Source: Alphaproteobacteria bacterium (GTDB lineage: Bacteria > Pseudomonadota > Alphaproteobacteria > Rs-D84 > SZUA-605). From it: 64,000 nt of DNA. The stretch is from assembly GCA_031549385.1 (NCBI GenBank), contig JAVBPW010000006.1, positions 27,935 to 91,934 of the forward strand, in the 5' to 3' direction. The notes beneath the pieces were generated by a model, which worked only from the letters and a program-made list of their open reading frames with translations, ran no database searches and had not been told where the DNA came from. This document shows positions 7,080 to 12,222 of this stretch, piece after piece (within the stretch, counting starts at the first letter, position 1; each line of letters begins with the position of its first letter). The translations under genes were made by a program, and so were the position numbers.

Positions 7080-8654
7080 TTAATTACCTAATCCGGCCTT
7101 TATAAATTCCTTAAATAAAGGGTGAGATGTGAATGGAGATGATTGGTATTCTGGGAGAAATTGTACTCCTATAAAAAATGGATGGTCTTCTATTTCTAAT
7201 ATTTCTGGAAGGTGATTTTCAGCTGCTCTTGCTGAGATTGTCATTCCACACTTCTTTAGAGTGTCTTCAAACATATCGTCCAATTCATAAGCATTTCTGT
7301 GGCGTTCAAGAACACTGTCTTGTCCATATACTTTGTGAGCCAAAGTATCTGGCTTGATTTGACATGTGAAATTGCCTAAACGTAGTTTTCTTGAATCGTA
7401 GGCATATACTACCGCTGTACAGTTTGCTTCAAATTCTGCAGAATGAGCGTCTGAAATACCTGCTACATTCTTTGCAAATTCTACGGCTGCTAATTGAAAG
7501 CCTAAACCAATACCAAAATATGGGATTTTGTTTTCACGAGCGTATTTAATTGCTCTTATCTTTCCTGGAATACCGCGAGAACCAAAGCCACCTGGAACTA
7601 ATATTCCTTTTACATCTTTAAATAGTTTTTCTATTTCTTCGTCTGATATATTTTCTAAACTTTCTGATGGGATTTGTTTTACATTTACTTTTACATTATT
7701 TGCTATACCTGCATGGAAAATAGCTTCGTTTAATGACTTGTATGAATCTGGAGTTTCAAAATATTTTCCTACCATTGCTATTGTGGTTTCTTTTTTGTCT
7801 GATGAAAGATAGTTTGCTATTCTTTCCAATTTTGATAAATCAACTGGCTGTTTTGGTTCAACTGTAAAATGTTCCAATATTCTTTCACATACGTGTTGTT
7901 CTTCATAAGCTAATGGGATTTTATAAATATTGTCTAAATCAAGAGCTGTAATTACTGACTGTGGTGCTAGGTTACAAAATAGAGCTAATTTTTCACGATC
8001 ATCTTTTGATAATGCAACTGATGAACGACATAGTAATAAATCAGCTTGAATTCCTTTTTCTAATAATGCTTTTACTGATGCTTGAGTTGGTTTTGTTTTG
8101 AGCTCTTTGGCTGAATTTATATATGGTACTAATGTCAAATGCACAAACATTGAATTTCGACGTCCAACTTCATTTGCAAATTGACGAATTGCTTCCAAGA
8201 ATATTAGGCCTTCTATGTCGCCTACAGTACCGCCTATTTCATATATAGCAAAATCTTCTTTTTGACCGCGTTTCTTGATATGTTCTTTTATTTGATTGGT
8301 AATATGAGGAATCATTTGAACTGTGGCACCTTTATAATCACCTGCTCTTTCTTTATTCAAAACTTCCCAATAAATACGACCGCCTGATACAGAATCGTCT
8401 TTACTTAATTTAATGCCTAAAAATCTTTCGTAATAACCTAAATCTAAATCAGTTTCATAACCGTCATGAGTCACAAAAACTTCACCATGTTGAAGAGGTG
8501 ACATTTGCGATGGGTCTATATTTAAATATGGATCGAATTTTCCTACACGAACTGTGAATCCACGAGCTTGTAATAATGAACCTAATGATGCTGCAGCAAC
8601 ACCTTTACCTAGCGATGAAACTACACCGCCTGTTACAAAAATATATTTTGTCAT
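7080..8654 (-). CDS. pyrG: CTP synthase with a degenerate glutaminase triad
   Basis: GGVVSSLGKG, EIGGTVGDIE, KTKPTQ, VPGGFG; but GIGLG replaces GICLG and QFLPE replaces QFHPE. Confidence 0.93.
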   Translation of the reverse strand: MTKYIFVTGGVVSSLGKGVAAASLGSLLQARGFTVRVGKFDPYLNIDPSQMSPLQHGEVFVTHDGYETDLDLGYYERFLGIKLSKDDSVSGGRIYWEVLNKERAGDYKGATVQMIPHITNQIKEHIKKRGQKEDFAIYEIGGTVGDIEGLIFLEAIRQFANEVGRRNSMFVHLTLVPYINSAKELKTKPTQASVKALLEKGIQADLLLCRSSVALSKDDREKLALFCNLAPQSVITALDLDNIYKIPLAYEEQHVCERILEHFTVEPKQPVDLSKLERIANYLSSDKKETTIAMVGKYFETPDSYKSLNEAIFHAGIANNVKVNVKQIPSESLENISDEEIEKLFKDVKGILVPGGFGSRGIPGKIRAIKYARENKIPYFGIGLGFQLAAVEFAKNVAGISDAHSAEFEANCTAVVYAYDSRKLRLGNFTCQIKPDTLAHKVYGQDSVLERHRNAYELDDMFEDTLKKCGMTISARAAENHLPEILEIEDHPFFIGVQFLPEYQSSPFTSHPLFKEFIKAGLGN

Positions 8655-8773
8655 TTCCTTCCCTTTAAAACTTTCTATTTTTTATACATACAAATATAAT
8701 AGTTTATTTTCCTATGTCAATTTTGAATTTATATTTTGGAAATAAAAAAATCTTGCTGAATGCAAGAAATTTG

Positions 8774-8818
8774 TGGTAGCGGGAGAGGGATTTGAACCCA
8801 CGACCCACGGATTATGAT
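8774..8818 (-). pseudogene. 3' half of split tRNA-Met (att junction)
   Basis: ATCATAATCCGTGGGTCGTGGGTTCAAATCCCTCTCCCGCTACCA on the minus strand with no adjacent 5' half. Confidence 0.9.
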
Positions 8819-9062
8819 ACCCCAGCGCACGAGGAAAAATACCTTTGACCCTGGCGGTTTTCTGCGGCTTTCGCAAACCTTTGTATCGGCTGGTGTCTAC
8901 ACGGTGTAAAACCATCCACCACCGCCCGCCTGTGTTAAACAGCCTTGTTTTGCCGTGCGGCGAAAGCGAAATATTTTAGCAAAACCTAAAAATAAGTGGC
9001 ATTTTTGAATGTTTGAGGGTATAGTTACATTAACATAAAAAAGCAACTTATAAGGAAATACA

Positions 9063-9692
9063 ATGTCATATAAAGTTATTGCGGCGCTTGGCGACAGTAT
9101 CACAAACGGTTATTGGGACGAAACCTTTCAGGGATGGTTTGGGCGATTGGCACAAAAAATTTCTGCCACATATCCTCAGTCCTTTGGATTCCACAACTTA
9201 TCTCAAGATGGCGATAGAATCTGCGATTTTTTTCACCGTTTTGCAGCCGAAGGTTGTTCGCGTGAAATTGATATCTTAATCGTAACTGCAAGTGGAAATG
9301 ATCTGGTGCGCAGTCCAACTCCAGATAGCCCGCAAGACTTATCAGAGCATTTACGTAACGAGTATTGGCATAAACTACTAGACTTGGCGCAAAAAAATAT
9401 TCCAAACATCATTGTAATGGACGCGTTGCCACGTCATAAAGACGATACTGTTGCATACGGTTGGTTTGATGCACCTATGTTTGAACCAAACTCAGACCGT
9501 ATAGAATATAATAATCAGGTGGCAAAAATTTGTGCAGACCGGAAAATCCCCTTTGTCCGTCGGTACGACAAATGGTTGACGCGCGATTTATCAAAACTCT
9601 ATGTAGATACTGCCCATCCAAATGGCGAGGGACATCAATTTATAGCTGATGGAGTATATGAAGAATTGAAAAAGTTGGGAGTATTGAAATGA
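9063..9692 (+). CDS. SGNH/GDSL family hydrolase
   Basis: GDSIT block I, GND block III, DTAHPN block V. Confidence 0.9.
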   Translation: MSYKVIAALGDSITNGYWDETFQGWFGRLAQKISATYPQSFGFHNLSQDGDRICDFFHRFAAEGCSREIDILIVTASGNDLVRSPTPDSPQDLSEHLRNEYWHKLLDLAQKNIPNIIVMDALPRHKDDTVAYGWFDAPMFEPNSDRIEYNNQVAKICADRKIPFVRRYDKWLTRDLSKLYVDTAHPNGEGHQFIADGVYEELKKLGVLK

Positions 9693-10444
9693 AGAACTAT
9701 TTTGAAAACAAAGTTGCTTTAATAACAGGTTCAACAAGCGGTATTGGCCTGGAAATTGCAAAGCATTTGTTGGCGGGTGGAGCAAAGGTTATTTTAAATT
9801 ACAATTCCAATACTAACCAAGCACAAAAAGCCATTAAAGAATTAGCAGAATATAATAAAAGCTTAATAGCAATAAAAGCGGATATTTCAAATGAATCCGA
9901 AATTATCGATATGTTTAAACAAATAAAATCACAATATGGGAAATTGGATTTTTTAGTAAATAACGCCGGAACAAATACAGATTCTTTAATAGAAAATTTT
10001 GATACAACCGACTTTCAGCAAGTTATAAATGTAAATTTAATTGGAAAGTTTTTATGCACAAAACATGCAATTCCGATGTTGAAAAATAATCAAAATGCTG
10101 CGATTGTAAATGTATCATCAAACTTAGGCGTTCGGCCATGCGCAGAATCTAGTGCATATAATGCCGCTGCTGCTGGAGTTATAAATTTGACACAATCCAC
10201 AGCATTGGAATTGGCTGGGATGGGTATTCGAGTTAATACGGTCAGTCCAGGATTTACACCAACACCCTTATCCTTATCCGGATGGACGACGGAAGAAATA
10301 GAGCAGAAAAAGAAAACAAACCCTATGAGACGAAATGCTACTGTAACAGACATTGCCAATACAGTCATATTCTTACTATCTGATAAGGCAGGATTCATAA
10401 ATGGGCAAAACATTTTAGTTAATGGTGGTTCAGTTATGAAATAA
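9689..10444 (+). CDS. SDR family oxidoreductase (FabG-like)
   Basis: TGSTSGIG, NNAG, RVNTVSPG; catalytic YxxxK reads YNAAA. Confidence 0.9.
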   Translation: MKNYFENKVALITGSTSGIGLEIAKHLLAGGAKVILNYNSNTNQAQKAIKELAEYNKSLIAIKADISNESEIIDMFKQIKSQYGKLDFLVNNAGTNTDSLIENFDTTDFQQVINVNLIGKFLCTKHAIPMLKNNQNAAIVNVSSNLGVRPCAESSAYNAAAAGVINLTQSTALELAGMGIRVNTVSPGFTPTPLSLSGWTTEEIEQKKKTNPMRRNATVTDIANTVIFLLSDKAGFINGQNILVNGGSVMK

Positions 10445-10498
10445 CCTATCTTTTACTTTCTACAAAAGAAAGTAAAGGTTCGCCCGAACAGAAAATTT

Positions 10499-10529
10499 AA
10501 AAGGCTTTCAGATTCCTCTGAAAGCCTTT
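10499..10529. terminator. Terminator between the SDR gene and tRNA-Met
   Basis: AAAGGCTTTCAGA-TTCC-TCTGAAAGCCTTT. Confidence 0.8.
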
Positions 10530-10536
10530 GTTTTGT

Positions 10537-10613
10537 TGGTAGCGGAGGAGGGATTTGAACCCCCGACATACGGATTATGATTCCGCCACTCTAACCAACT
10601 GAGTTACTCCGCC
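10537..10613 (-). tRNA. tRNA-Met(CAT), intact, probably elongator
   Basis: 77-nt cloverleaf: GGCGGAG/CTCCGCT acceptor stem, GCGGA-ATCATAA-TCCGT anticodon arm, TTCAAAT T-loop, encoded CCA. Confidence 0.95.
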
Positions 10614-10788
10614 AAAACTTTTACACACTCTAACACATTCTTTTTCGCCGTGTCCAGACCAATGTCTTTGATATGTCCGAACTGACTCCATAAATGCGTT
10701 TTTACTCTACCTATCCTCTTTCCGCCCATTCCCACTCAAACCGCCATATTGTGGCTTAAACGGGCTTAAACTGTCTTGCGGCGAAGGA

Positions 10789-10827
10789 ATTATGATTCCG
10801 TTGCTCTAACCCCTGAGCTATCCCGCC
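10789..10827 (-). pseudogene. 5' half of split tRNA-Met (att junction)
   Basis: GGCGGGATAGCTCAGGGGTTAGAGCAACGGAATCATAAT followed by non-tRNA sequence. Confidence 0.9.
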
Positions 10828-10961
10828 ATTGAATATAACTTGCATAAGTATATGTAATTTAATCCGAAAATCAAGTGTTTTTTCTTGACTTTTTTAAAGA
10901 TTTTTTGTATAATGCTTTTTATCGTTGGGTGGACTTGGTCTGCCTTTTTTTGTAGGAGTTC

Positions 10962-11495
10962 TTGAAAATGAAAAAGATATTTATTTTGATTATTGCTTTA
11001 ATTCTTGTCTTAATAACTGGGTTTGTTTACTTTAAATATATTAAAAAAAAGGAAGTTATTCAAATTAATGATGGTATTACTACCATTGACTTAAATAATG
11101 ACGGTACTGAAGATTTAATTGTTAAAACCTTTCATCAAACTGAATCTGCTTCATCTGATAAATTTGTTTATATGTTTTCTATTTTTGACAGTGAAACAAA
11201 AAAATATAAAAATATTCAACTTAATTCTGAGGATATTGTTGTAGAAATGCTTGGAAATGAAGAAGATTTAACTTTAGATTGTCATAAATCTGTTATTGGT
11301 TTGAGTAAAAATTATAAAAAAGAAATTATTTTAACTATAGTTTCACTTGAACTTAATGATTTATTTAATCCCTCACCTTCTAATGCCACTATATCAAAAT
11401 ATAAAATAGACAATAGTTCTGGTATTTATGAATGGAAGTTAATAAATAAAGAAAAAAAGAATGGTAAATATTGTAATCTGAAAGAATTGTTATAA
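10962..11495 (+). CDS. Membrane-anchored exported protein, CarG-like
   Basis: N-terminal TM helix; NDGITTIDLNNDGTEDL motif recalls the CarG family (recognised by eye). Confidence 0.55.
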   Translation: MKMKKIFILIIALILVLITGFVYFKYIKKKEVIQINDGITTIDLNNDGTEDLIVKTFHQTESASSDKFVYMFSIFDSETKKYKNIQLNSEDIVVEMLGNEEDLTLDCHKSVIGLSKNYKKEIILTIVSLELNDLFNPSPSNATISKYKIDNSSGIYEWKLINKEKKNGKYCNLKELL

Positions 11496-11574
11496 AAAAG
11501 ATTATGTAAAAATTATATAAAACTGGCTTATTTAAGCCAGTTTTTTTTATTATAAAAAAATAAAAGGAAAAATT

Positions 11575-12222
11575 ATGGAAGTTAAAAGTGATGTAAAAAA
11601 CAAAACTGTAATATATAATAATGGAAAAGAAAAAATTATAAAAAAAGGAGGAACTGTTGCTTGGAGAACTAATAATCCAGGAAACCTATCATATGGTTCT
11701 TTAGAAGGTGCTGTAAAAGATGGAGCAATTGGGGTTTACCGTTATAAAACATATAAATTTGGAATATTTCCTGATTTTGAAACTGGAGAAAAAGCTTTAA
11801 AAAATTTATGGAAGAATAAATGGAAAAATATAATGCCTGAAAGAACAGTTAAAGAAGCTATGTTTATATACTCTCCACCTGAAGATAATAATACCAGTAA
11901 ATATATTGATAATATCAATAAAAAAGTAGATGCAAATAAGAAAATTAAAGATTTAAATGATAATGATTTTGATAATCTATTTTCAGTTATAAAAAAACAA
12001 GAAGGTAATGGATTAGGAATAGAAAAAAGAGAAAAAGTTTCACATTTTGGATTGAAAATTGACAATGAATATAAGGAATTTAAAGATAAACCCATTGAAT
12101 ATGATGCTACTGGAAAAATTATACCACCCAGAATATCAATTAATGGATCAGTTAATGTAAAAAAACATATTAGAGATGGATATAATGTAAATTCTTATAC
12201 TAGGAGTCTTCCTAATAGATAG
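11575..12222 (+). CDS. Lysozyme-like / phage virion-type protein of the NNPGN family
   Basis: AWRTNNPGNL...FPDFETG.KAL...YSPPEDNNTSKYI; C-terminal VKKHIRDGYNVNSYTRS motif. Confidence 0.65.
   Translation: MEVKSDVKNKTVIYNNGKEKIIKKGGTVAWRTNNPGNLSYGSLEGAVKDGAIGVYRYKTYKFGIFPDFETGEKALKNLWKNKWKNIMPERTVKEAMFIYSPPEDNNTSKYIDNINKKVDANKKIKDLNDNDFDNLFSVIKKQEGNGLGIEKREKVSHFGLKIDNEYKEFKDKPIEYDATGKIIPPRISINGSVNVKKHIRDGYNVNSYTRSLPNR

What the first reader, a model, noticed from the sequence alone, without database searches (positions are those of the whole stretch)
8774..10827. tRNA-Met split by a ~1.98 kb islet that supplies a whole replacement tRNA
Seen: the 5' half (10827-10790) and 3' half (8811-8774) rejoin into a 76-nt tRNA-Met across a duplicated 8-bp core ATCATAAT covering the anticodon loop. 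The halves match each other (acceptor GGCGGGA/TCCCGCT, anticodon stem ACGGA/TCCGT), not the intact internal tRNA at 10613-10537 (GGCGGAG/CTCCGCT). Established: tyrosine integrases often recombine at the anticodon loop but normally restore the gene with a duplicated half. Here the target is left broken, and a full, sequence-distinct isoacceptor sits ~175 bp downstream of the 5' half on the same strand. The orphan 3' half has a T-T mismatch in its T-stem, consistent with decay. No integrase is present. Inference: a tRNA-replacement integration strategy that could make the islet indispensable.
Basis: partly seen in the sequence, partly recalled or inferred. Interest (0 to 1): 0.78.

Follow-up and report, generated by a model that had tools for sequence, protein, structure and literature searches.

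The report
Mini mobile element replacing tRNA-Met
A 2-kb mobile DNA piece without its own integrase has cut this bacterium's methionine tRNA gene in two and supplies the only working copy itself, a small hitchhiking version of a phage trick first described in 2024.

Summary
The elongator tRNA-Met gene upstream of pyrG is split in its anticodon loop by a 1,978-bp insert bounded by an 8-bp ATCATAAT repeat. The insert carries a whole, different tRNA-Met, an SDR and an SGNH hydrolase, and no integrase. Its tRNA is the only intact elongator tRNA-Met among the 37 tRNA genes of a 97%-complete genome.

It has also been noted for Sinorhizobium prophages.

In this bacterial order, 4 of 328 genomes show the same layout. 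One of them (G283) holds a 33.6-kb prophage with an arm-binding tyrosine integrase.

What is new is that the window's insert is not a prophage:
- It is an integrase-less unit that keeps both att arms, with phased repeats at the same distances from the core as in the G283 prophage.
- The same unit lies core-to-core inside an outer-membrane-protein gene of another genome (G328). Its tRNA is 77/77 identical and the unit as a whole is 71.6% identical. G328 encodes a family integrase elsewhere.

The best reading is a trans-mobilised mini-element of that integration system, whose tRNA has taken over an essential host function here.

The parts
10847..10874 (-). promoter-like site in front of the native (now split) tRNA-Met gene (TTGATT-16-TATACT)
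   Evidence: Consensus scan. The scan found 9 sites in the region against 7.1 +/- 2.9 in shuffles, so this is weak on its own.
10790..10827 (-). 5' half of the native elongator tRNA-Met (acceptor 5' strand, D arm, anticodon stem 5' strand and loop)
   Evidence: It has a 1-nt shorter D loop than the 15 other tRNA-Met genes of the order compared.
10789..10796 (-). core copy at attL (ATCATAAT: anticodon loop plus the first base of the 3' stem strand)
   Evidence: The same 8-mer ends the 5' halves in G010, G283 and G312.
10614..10788 (-). attL arm of the element, 175 nt. It has three phased direct repeats GACAT/GACAT/GACAC at 10677-10673, 10666-10662 and 10654-10650 (+112, +123, +135 from the core), read as candidate arm-type integrase sites.
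   Evidence: The copy in G328 has the same positions. G283 and G312 have the same 11/12-nt phasing at +134/+145/+157. There are 3 hits against 0.56 expected in shuffles. The arm is 76% identical to the G328 copy.
10537..10613 (-). element-borne complete tRNA-Met(CAU), the only intact elongator tRNA-Met of the genome
   Evidence: ARAGORN; Rfam RF00005 66.9 bits. It is 77/77 identical to the G328 copy and 91% identical to the element tRNA of G312, with which it shares the unusual ACTC/GAGT D stem.
10500..10529 (.). 13-bp perfect hairpin between the tRNA and the SDR gene, terminator-like on both strands
   Evidence: (I6).
9689..10444 (+). cargo gene: short-chain dehydrogenase/reductase (FabG-like), 251 aa
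   Evidence: Pfam adh_short_C2 5e-61; phrog_3142 7.7e-57. It is 72% aa identical to the G328 copy.
9063..9692 (+). cargo gene: SGNH/GDSL hydrolase, 209 aa, overlapping the SDR start by 4 nt
   Evidence: Pfam Lipase_GDSL_2 1.2e-18. It is 83% aa identical to the G328 copy. A match was found in only 6 of 328 genomes of the order. Its GC is 41.7% against 31.9% for the window.
8819..9062 (-). attR arm of the element, non-coding. It has two phased repeats TACAC (8908-8904) and GACAC (8897-8893), at -90 and -79 from the core.
   Evidence: The distances -90/-79 are identical in the G283 prophage and in the G328 copy. GC is 43%.
8811..8818 (-). core copy at attR (ATCATAAT)
8774..8811 (-). orphan 3' half of the native tRNA-Met (anticodon stem 3' strand, variable loop, T arm, acceptor 3' strand, CCA)
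   Evidence: A G-to-T change in the T stem turns the G.U pair seen in all 16 other sequences aligned into U.U.
8751..8767 (-). terminator-like hairpin plus T run after the orphan 3' half (the native tRNA terminator)

Best explanation
The 1,978-bp insert is an integrase-less, att-complete mini integrative element. It belongs to the integration system of a family of temperate phages of this alphaproteobacterial order.

Those phages use an arm-binding tyrosine integrase to recombine at a 7-8-bp core (ATCATAA[T]) in the anticodon loop of elongator tRNA-Met. They do not rebuild the target. Instead they carry a complete tRNA-Met about 155-175 bp inside attL. This is tRNA-dependent lysogeny.

The mini-element keeps both att arms with their phased arm-type repeats, the replacement tRNA, and two cargo enzymes (SDR, SGNH hydrolase). 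It has no recombinase, so an integrase supplied in trans must have inserted it.

Shown:
- the split, the core repeat, the conserved arm architecture, and the sole-copy status of the element tRNA;
- the same layout around a full prophage with integrase in G283;
- a second copy of the same unit at a different site in G328.

Inferred:
- the G283-type integrase family is the one that moves it;
- the element tRNA is expressed (from the native promoter by read-through and/or a site at 10656-10627) and charged;
- the element can no longer be lost here, because it holds the only elongator tRNA-Met and the split halves have begun to decay.
For: (1) Anatomy of the split and insert.

(2) Sole elongator tRNA-Met. 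The genome has 37 tRNA genes, three of them CAU. C7:281905 has the C1/A72 mismatch. C2:117981 is closest (81%) to tRNA-Ile(GAU), and a TilS-family gene (PF01171) is present. The third CAU tRNA is the element's.

(3) Recurrence. Of 328 genomes of the order scanned with an exact 23-nt pattern, 4 (G000, G010, G283, G312) have a 5' half ending in ATCATAAT followed 155-175 nt later by an intact tRNA-Met.

(4) G283. The two halves lie 33.6 kb apart around a prophage:
- tape measure phrog_28 6e-144 and tail protein phrog_52 2e-105;
- integrase with Arm-DNA-bind_3 and Phage_integrase domains next to attR, phrog_1 4e-58.

(5) Arm architecture. [GT]ACA[CT] repeats lie at -90/-79 from the core in the attR arm of G000, G283 and G328. 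In the attL arm they are 11/12 nt apart: +112/+123/+135 in G000 and G328, +134/+145/+157 in G283 and G312, and +134/+145 in G010.

(6) Second copy. L113/G328 aligns to window 10796-8812, exactly core to core, at 71.6% over 2,001 columns. Nothing else in the 8-kb locus matches G000.
- Identity: tRNA 77/77; SGNH 83% aa; SDR 72% aa.
- There it splits an OMP beta-barrel gene at a 7-bp ATCATAA core. Removing the element and one core copy restores a 187-codon frame without stops.
- G328 has a family integrase elsewhere (E 5e-114 to the profile, Arm-DNA-bind_3 present).

(7) Foreign composition. The arms are 43-44% GC and SGNH is 41.7%, against 31.9% for the window. A SGNH match was found in 6 of 328 genomes.

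(8) The mechanism is established experimentally elsewhere: PMC10865867 (abstract and sections 5, 10, 11 read).
Against: - No integrase of the G283 family is in G000. The best match is 31% identical. The one arm-domain integrase (contig C7, 440 aa) is 34% identical over part of its length.
- The helper is therefore not identified. In G328 the family integrase is on another contig, with no visible link to the element.
- Only two copies of the mini-element were found. Scans of viral contigs, a metagenome pattern scan and 11 metagenome loci with SGNH relatives gave no further copy.
- No free or circular form and no empty site was seen. laid contigs only, from one sample that is probably the source.
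- The arm repeats are short motifs. In the attR arms alone they are not enriched over shuffles (P 0.21-0.25). The argument rests on their identical positions in three elements.
- Expression and charging of the element tRNA were not tested.
- The G312 islet lacks a recognisable attR arm and has an imperfect core, so decay in place also produces 2-kb islets.
Confidence: 0.75

Rival explanations
1. Prophage remnant decayed in place. A G283-like prophage integrated into tRNA-Met, and deletions later removed everything but the tRNA, two moron genes and the arms. The unit has no mobility of its own.
For: G312 has a 2.13-kb islet of the same kind with other cargo (three small secreted proteins). It has no attR arm repeats, an imperfect core (CCAATAAT) and a duplicated signal-peptide fragment abutting the 3' half, which looks like decay. 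No cognate integrase is present in G000.
Against: The identical gene content and the same core-to-core limits occur at a different locus (an OMP gene) in another genome, with both arms and their repeat positions conserved and the frame of the target restored on removal. Two independent decays would not give the same unit. The arms (66-76% identity) are kept better than the tRNA-SDR spacer (54%).
Confidence: 0.12
2. Transposon-type insertion, in which the 8-bp repeat is a target-site duplication made by a transposase acting in trans.
For: The insert is bounded by a short direct repeat and has no recombinase of its own.
Against: The repeat has the same sequence (ATCATAA) at two unrelated targets and in four related elements. 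That pattern fits a recombination core and not a duplication of whatever target was hit. No terminal inverted repeats join the two ends. The full-size relative carries a tyrosine integrase and no transposase next to the same junction.
Confidence: 0.03
3. The insert is an intron, or the gene is a split tRNA whose halves are joined at the RNA level.
For: The position in the anticodon loop is the classic place for bacterial group I introns in tRNA genes.
Against: No intron family matched in 8000-11500 at E up to 1. The insert holds an independent tRNA with its own terminator and two genes on the other strand. The sequences after the 5' half and before the 3' half are no more complementary than shuffles (-12.7 against -13.3 +/- 2.9 kcal/mol). 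The same unit sits in a protein gene in G328.
Confidence: 0.01
4. Assembly artefact that joins tRNA-Met copies of different organisms in a metagenome.
For: The genome is a metagenome-type assembly of 8 contigs. tRNA genes are repeats at which the contigs of run X1 break.
Against: Separate contigs of run X1 bridge both junctions at the same depth as the flanks (same sample, so weak support). The two halves fit each other base for base. Three other genomes and one further genome (G328) show the same junction sequences.
Confidence: 0.02

Closest known systems
tRNA-dependent lysogeny of actinobacteriophages (Fionnbharth, LeBron, Gaia, OneUp, Mollymur; Guerrero-Bustamante & Hatfull, mBio 2024, PMC10865867; abstract and sections 5, 10, 11 read)
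   Same: A tyrosine-integrase system with an attB inside a tRNA gene. The common core is only 8-17 bp (8 bp here), so the tRNA is not rebuilt. [quoted passage not shown] Putative arm-type sites flank the core, and secondary non-tRNA sites are used.
   Different: There the elements are complete temperate phages with their own integrase, the hosts are Actinobacteria, and the targets are tRNA-Lys, Leu and Ile2. Here the host is a reduced alphaproteobacterium and the target is elongator tRNA-Met. The window's element is a 2-kb unit without integrase or any phage gene. No experiment supports it.
Mesorhizobium phage Lo5R7ANS-like prophages in Sinorhizobium meliloti tRNA-Leu(UAG) (PMC11476347; passages read)
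   Same: Alphaproteobacteria. An intact prophage is integrated in the central part of a tRNA gene, which is inactivated, and the prophage carries a replacement tRNA of the same isoacceptor that resembles tRNAs of other species.
   Different: Those are full prophages with integrase in a large genome with 52 tRNA genes, not a mini-element. Their att architecture was not compared here, and the paper's supplementary tables could not be seen.
Lactobacillus johnsonii prophage Lj965 (named in the discussion of PMC10865867; the original papers were not read)
   Same: A prophage that fails to rebuild the tRNA at its junction and encodes a cognate tRNA.
   Different: It is a full prophage in Firmicutes. 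I know it only through the citing passage.
CIMEs, cis-mobilisable elements derived from ICEs of Streptococcus thermophilus (recalled from memory; no call)
   Same: Elements bounded by functional attL and attR of an integrase-bearing relative but lacking recombination and transfer genes, thought to move with a helper's integrase.
   Different: CIMEs sit beside the rebuilt 3' end of a protein gene (fda), carry no tRNA and do not replace an essential host gene. The comparison rests on recall.
Classical tRNA-gene genomic islands and prophages (Williams 2002; Islander database abstract, PMC4383910, seen in the listing)
   Same: A tyrosine integrase with crossover in the anticodon loop, and a displaced tRNA fragment that marks the far end.
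   Different: In those, the element restores the gene with a copy of the displaced part. Here nothing is restored at attL, and a separate whole gene does the job.

Membership tests
tRNA-dependent lysogeny (sensu Guerrero-Bustamante & Hatfull 2024) | attB overlaps a host tRNA gene and the common core is too short to rebuild the tRNA after integration | tested here: met
   The core is 8 bp, ATCATAAT, at both junctions. The 5' half is followed by non-tRNA sequence, and ARAGORN and Rfam see no tRNA at either junction.
tRNA-dependent lysogeny (sensu Guerrero-Bustamante & Hatfull 2024) | [quoted passage not shown] | tested here: met
   A tRNA-Met(CAU) lies at 10613-10537 inside the insert. It has the same loop and the same G1.U72/GGCGG-type acceptor as the order's elongator tRNA-Met genes.
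tRNA-dependent lysogeny (sensu Guerrero-Bustamante & Hatfull 2024) | the disrupted host tRNA is essential and otherwise single-copy, so the element tRNA is required | tested here: met
   By gene inventory only. Three CAU tRNAs are found among 37 in a 97%-complete assembly: one initiator type, one Ile2-like (81% to tRNA-Ile-GAU, with a TilS-family gene present), and the element's. No experiment was done.
tRNA-dependent lysogeny (sensu Guerrero-Bustamante & Hatfull 2024) | the element is a temperate phage that encodes the tyrosine integrase which does the recombination | tested here: not met
   The insert has no integrase and no phage structural or regulatory gene. The feature is met in the relative G283. 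So the window's element works like the family but is not a lysogenic phage.
Integrase-less, att-bounded elements mobilised in trans (CIME-like) | both att sites of an integrase-bearing relative are kept | tested here: met
   The core is present at both ends. Phased repeats lie at -90/-79 and are 11/12 nt apart in the attL arm, at the same places as in the G283 prophage or the G328 copy.
Integrase-less, att-bounded elements mobilised in trans (CIME-like) | no recombination or transfer genes of its own | tested here: met
   The only genes are SDR, SGNH hydrolase and the tRNA.
Integrase-less, att-bounded elements mobilised in trans (CIME-like) | moves as a unit with a helper's integrase | tested here: inconclusive
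   The same unit lies at two different sites in two genomes, with precise core-to-core limits. A family integrase is present in G328, but none closer than 31-34% identity is in G000. No excision product was seen.
Group I intron in a tRNA anticodon loop | ribozyme core recognisable by the Rfam intron models | tested here: not met
   No intron family matched in 8000-11500 at E up to 1.
Split tRNA genes joined in trans (Nanoarchaeota type) | complementary sequences after the 5' half and before the 3' half | tested here: not met
   The duplex energy is -12.7 kcal/mol against -13.3 +/- 2.9 for shuffles.
Classical tRNA-integrating island or prophage | the element carries a copy of the displaced tRNA part, so that an intact hybrid gene stands at one junction | tested here: not met
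   Identity between the junctions stops after 8 bp. Neither junction is a tRNA.

The most novel reading that the evidence does not exclude
The unit is a new kind of satellite: a tRNA-carrying, integrase-less mini-element that parasitises phages practising tRNA-dependent lysogeny. Its own tRNA-Met would do three jobs. It pays for the tRNA the element destroys. It makes the element unlosable once the split halves decay, which amounts to a tRNA-based addiction. And because its anticodon loop is itself an attB, it offers a landing pad. Elements and helper phages could then insert into each other's tRNA-Met, and the mini-element could ride inside a helper genome to new hosts. That would explain its presence in two distant genomes. 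It would also explain two 5' tRNA pieces spaced 194 and 195 nt in front of the intact tRNA-Met in G010.
Probability: 0.25. Interest if true: 0.7.

Novelty: new variant of a known kind. Interest (0 to 1): 0.55.

Why it matters
tRNA-dependent lysogeny has so far been shown experimentally only in actinobacteriophages, and its reach elsewhere was left open (discussion of PMC10865867). Three points follow from this window.

- **Reach.** The same logic appears in a whole order of small-genome, animal-gut-associated Alphaproteobacteria, on elongator tRNA-Met. In one genome it probably also appears on an Ile2-like CAU tRNA.
- **End point.** An essential single-copy host tRNA gene has been permanently replaced by a mobile element's copy, while the host halves decay. 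This is a concrete route for horizontal turnover of core translation genes.
- **Parasitism.** The integration system can be exploited by a 2-kb element that carries only att arms, the tRNA and two enzymes.

It also matters for annotation. Such genomes look as if they had a normal tRNA-Met, while the native gene is broken and an islet boundary is hidden inside it.

Tried and rejected
- **Rfam.** An E-value scan of 8000-11500 gave no intron or other structured-RNA family apart from the tRNA.
- **Naming the CAU tRNAs through annotated E. coli genomes.** The element tRNA found nothing, and the C2 tRNA hit tRNA-Lys at 77%. This was not informative and was replaced by comparison within the genome.
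- **An uninterrupted native gene in the only same-family genome.** G001 (84% complete) shows 18 tRNA genes and none with CAU. Its pyrG neighbourhood has no tRNA. No conclusion is possible.
- **pyrG neighbourhoods of 11 other relatives.** They have no tRNA within 1.5 kb, so synteny gives no empty site.
- **A free phage or further copies:**
  - pattern of the element tRNA in viral contigs: 0;
  - G283 integrase in viral contigs: 0 close relatives;
  - integrase profile in viral contigs: 15 loci, the four closest (40-44% identity) with tRNA-Asn pieces or none, and none with tRNA-Met;
  - pattern in metagenome contigs: 0;
  - SGNH profile in metagenome contigs: 13 loci, of which the 11 with the best matches (L121-L131) were examined; all 11 have SGNH without SDR or tRNA-Met beside it.
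- **Reads.** Only assembled contigs of one run were available, and two further runs of the same study held next to none of the words. They show no excised or empty form, which says nothing about absence.
- **Terminal inverted repeats.** None was found between the two ends.
- **A 30-nt direct repeat in both arms** (8935-8964 and 10756-10785, 73%) was seen but not explained.
Full report
**1. What is in the sequence**

On the minus strand a tRNA 5' half (10827-10790) ends in the anticodon loop. It is followed by 175 nt of non-coding DNA and then by a complete tRNA-Met (10613-10537; ARAGORN; Rfam tRNA 66.9 bits). The matching 3' half lies at 8811-8774, directly upstream of pyrG (8654-7080).

ATCATAAT stands at 10796-10789 and at 8818-8811, 1,978 bp apart. 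Joined in a script, the halves give a 76-nt cloverleaf that ARAGORN calls tRNA-Met(CAT). It has one U.U in the T stem. The halves fit each other, not the internal gene.

Between the internal tRNA and the 3' half lie two overlapping genes on the plus strand:
- an SGNH/GDSL hydrolase (9063-9692);
- a FabG-like SDR (9689-10444).

There is no integrase or phage gene. Contigs assembled independently from run X1 bridge both junctions at the same depth as the flanks. X1 is probably the source sample, so this is weak support.

**2. The element tRNA is the only elongator tRNA-Met**

The genome (931 kb, 8 contigs, 97% complete, 30% GC) has 37 tRNA genes, three of them with a CAU anticodon.
- One has the C1/A72 mismatch that marks bacterial initiators (the rule is recalled).
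- One is most like the genome's tRNA-Ile(GAU) (81%, with a similar acceptor stem). A TilS-family gene (PF01171) is present, so it is read as tRNA-Ile2.
- The third is the element's tRNA.

It shares the loop AATCATAAT and the GGCGG-type acceptor with the elongator tRNA-Met genes of the order.

The split copy differs from 15 other tRNA-Met genes of the order by a 1-nt shorter D loop. It also has a G-to-T change that breaks a T-stem pair present in all 16 other sequences aligned. This is consistent with decay after disruption. The lineage's own intact version is not available for comparison, because the only same-family genome shows no CAU tRNA at all.

**3. The layout recurs in the order**

An exact 23-nt pattern covering the D arm to the anticodon loop was run over 328 genomes of the order. 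It matched at least once in 126 genomes. Four genomes (G000, G010, G283, G312) had two matches 195-215 nt apart on one contig. A fifth (G289) had two matches at contig ends that cannot be read.

In all four, a 5' half ending in ATCATAAT is followed 155-175 nt later by an intact tRNA-Met of different sequence.

- **G283.** The orphan 3' half lies 33.6 kb downstream. The DNA between is a prophage, with a tape measure (phrog_28, 6e-144), a tail protein (phrog_52, 2e-105) and a lysin-like domain. A 405-aa tyrosine integrase (Phage_integrase, Arm-DNA-bind_3, SAM-like domain; phrog_1, 4e-58) and a small HTH gene sit next to attR.
- **G312.** The two halves enclose 2.13 kb carrying three small secreted proteins and no integrase. 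The attR side is degenerate.
- **G010.** The contig ends inside the element.
- **G306.** An integrase 58% identical to that of G283 lies 450 bp from an intact Ile2-like CAU tRNA. A 5' half of the same tRNA, broken after CTCATAA, lies 232 bp away in inverse orientation. Its far end was not looked for.

These genomes are kin, and the pattern was strict, so the count of 4 in 328 is a lower bound and not a frequency.

**4. Conserved att architecture**

The spacers do not align overall, but each carries short direct repeats of the form [GT]ACA[CT] in phase.

| Arm | Element | Repeat positions from the core |
|---|---|---|
| attL | G283, G312 | +134 / +145 / +157 |
| attL | G010 | +134 / +145 |
| attL | G000 (window) | +112 / +123 / +135 |
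| attR | G000 and G283 | -90 / -79 |

In G283 a 22-nt block holding two repeats is present in both arms.

The repeats are enriched over shuffles in three of the four attL arms (P 0.02-0.03; G010 0.08). They are not enriched in the longer attR stretches (P 0.21-0.25). The weight lies in their identical positions.

With an integrase that has an arm-binding domain, these repeats are best read as arm-type sites. The window's insert has therefore kept a complete attL and attR.

**5. The same 2-kb unit elsewhere**

A pattern for the unusual D stem (ACTC/GAGT) of the element tRNA was run over one genome per species of the public collection. It found two records: the G312 contig, and L113, which belongs to a 1.6-Mb genome (G328) that its record title calls an Alphaproteobacteria MAG.

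L113 aligns to the window from 10796 to 8812, exactly core to core, at 71.6% over 2,001 columns. Nothing else in the 8-kb locus matches G000.

| Segment | Identity between the two copies |
|---|---|
| tRNA | 77 of 77 |
| attL arm | 76% |
| SGNH | 75% nt, 83% aa |
| SDR | 71% nt, 72% aa |
| attR arm | 66% |
| tRNA-SDR spacer | 54% |

The repeats stand at +112/+123/+135 and -90/-79, as in the window.

In G328 the unit does not sit in a tRNA. It splits an outer-membrane beta-barrel gene: the C-terminal part matches PF13505 from position 58 to 175, and the N-terminal part has a signal peptide. The insertion is at a 7-bp ATCATAA repeat. Removing the unit with one core copy gives a 187-codon frame without stops.

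G328 also has an intact native-type elongator tRNA-Met. It has a family integrase with an arm-binding domain on another contig (E 5e-114 to a 10-sequence profile). No att-like tRNA piece was seen beside that integrase.

A unit with the same content and the same limits at two unrelated sites in two genomes is hard to explain by decay in place. It moves, or moved, as a unit, and it has no recombinase.

**6. Cargo and composition**

A SGNH hydrolase match was found in only 6 of 328 genomes of the order, in six genera. In two of them, where neighbours were annotated, it sits among housekeeping genes. In metagenome contigs it occurs without the SDR or a tRNA.

In the window, SGNH (41.7% GC) and the arms (43-44% GC) stand out from the window average (31.9%) and from pyrG and typA (34-36%). 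The SDR (34%) does not.

The element tRNAs of G000 and G312 are each other's closest relatives (91%). The split host genes of G000, G283 and G312 all have the GGCGGGA-type acceptor. So the tRNA travels with the element.

**7. What is known**

Guerrero-Bustamante and Hatfull (mBio 2024, PMC10865867; abstract and sections 5, 10 and 11 read) describe exactly this logic as tRNA-dependent lysogeny:
- a tyrosine integrase;
- an 8-17-bp core in a host tRNA;
- no reconstruction of the tRNA;
- a phage tRNA of the same isotype that is required for viable lysogens;
- arm-type sites around the core;
- secondary non-tRNA sites when the tRNA is missing.

They list tRNA-Lys, tRNA-Leu and tRNA-Ile2 targets in actinobacteriophages. 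They name Lj965 of Lactobacillus johnsonii as a possible case elsewhere, and they leave the wider distribution open.

A Sinorhizobium study (PMC11476347; passages read) reports two intact prophages that inactivate tRNA-Leu(UAG) centrally and carry a replacement. A full-text search for the term found 23 papers. I read passages in two of them. Going by titles and the abstract openings in the listing, the other papers do not concern an integrase-less element of this kind, but I did not read them. The supplements of all papers were closed, including the figures that show the arm-type sites.

**8. Verdict**

Three things go beyond the literature I could see:
- the occurrence in an order of small-genome Alphaproteobacteria, on elongator tRNA-Met;
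- the end state, in which the mobile tRNA is the sole copy while the host halves decay;
- a 2-kb integrase-less, att-complete unit that carries the replacement tRNA and two enzymes and is found at two sites in two genomes.

The helper integrase, the route between cells and the expression of the tRNA are inferred, not shown.

Noticed in passing
G000 contig C2:66626-66796 (outside the window): ARAGORN lists a tRNA with anticodon CUA (labelled tRNA-Pyl) and, 26 nt away, an odd tRNA-like gene with a two-base 'anticodon'. This could be a suppressor tRNA or a decayed pair.
   Followed up: no
window 11575-12222 (+), just outside the element on the attL side: A 215-aa ORF in a very AT-rich stretch (22-29% GC) has a weak match to the phage lysin/transglycosylase-like domain. 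The same domain occurs in the G283 prophage (BLASTP 8e-8; phrog_2276/7182/873 at 6e-7 to 8e-6). This may be debris of an older phage next to the same tRNA.
   Followed up: partly
L014 (G010 contig C47) 1724-1690, minus strand: Directly after tRNA-Phe lies a further tRNA 5' fragment (GGCGACT type) that breaks off inside the anticodon stem. Its start is 194 nt before the start of the split tRNA-Met 5' half, which is itself 195 nt before the intact tRNA-Met. The equal spacing suggests two nested integrations, but the first junction has no ATCATAAT.
   Followed up: no
L043 (G306 contig C7) 700-2712: A 5' half of an Ile2-like CAU tRNA is broken after CTCATAA. An intact copy lies 232 bp away on the other strand, next to an integrase 58% identical to that of G283. 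This is probably the same disrupt-and-replace trick on another tRNA.
   Followed up: partly
L045, L052, L064, L065, L067, L075 (relatives' integrase loci and a viral contig): Integrases 40-45% identical to that of G283 sit beside tRNA-Asn or tRNA-Gln. Several loci show orphan 3' halves cut in the anticodon loop, and two show an intact tRNA with an orphan 3' half 130-230 nt downstream. Whether these rebuild the tRNA or replace it was not worked out.
   Followed up: no
L028 (G006 contig C45) about 1465-1530: An orphan 3' half of tRNA-Met, preceded by non-tRNA sequence, lies about 200 bp from a divergent integrase (35% identity to G283). No 5'-pattern match exists anywhere in that 99%-complete genome.
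   Followed up: no
window 8935-8964 and 10756-10785: A 30-nt direct repeat (73%) has one copy right after the attL core and one 117 nt inside the attR core. Its function is unknown (D2).
   Followed up: no
L032 (G312 contig C8) 12104-12170: The 3' half of the split tRNA-Met is abutted by a second copy of the signal-peptide start of the neighbouring small secreted protein gene. This is a sign of rearrangement at that element's attR end.
   Followed up: no
L069 (G000 contig C2:106878-110762): A 352-aa tyrosine recombinase without an arm domain sits next to a gene with an AbiU2-type HEPN domain (1e-8). This may be a small defence islet.
   Followed up: no
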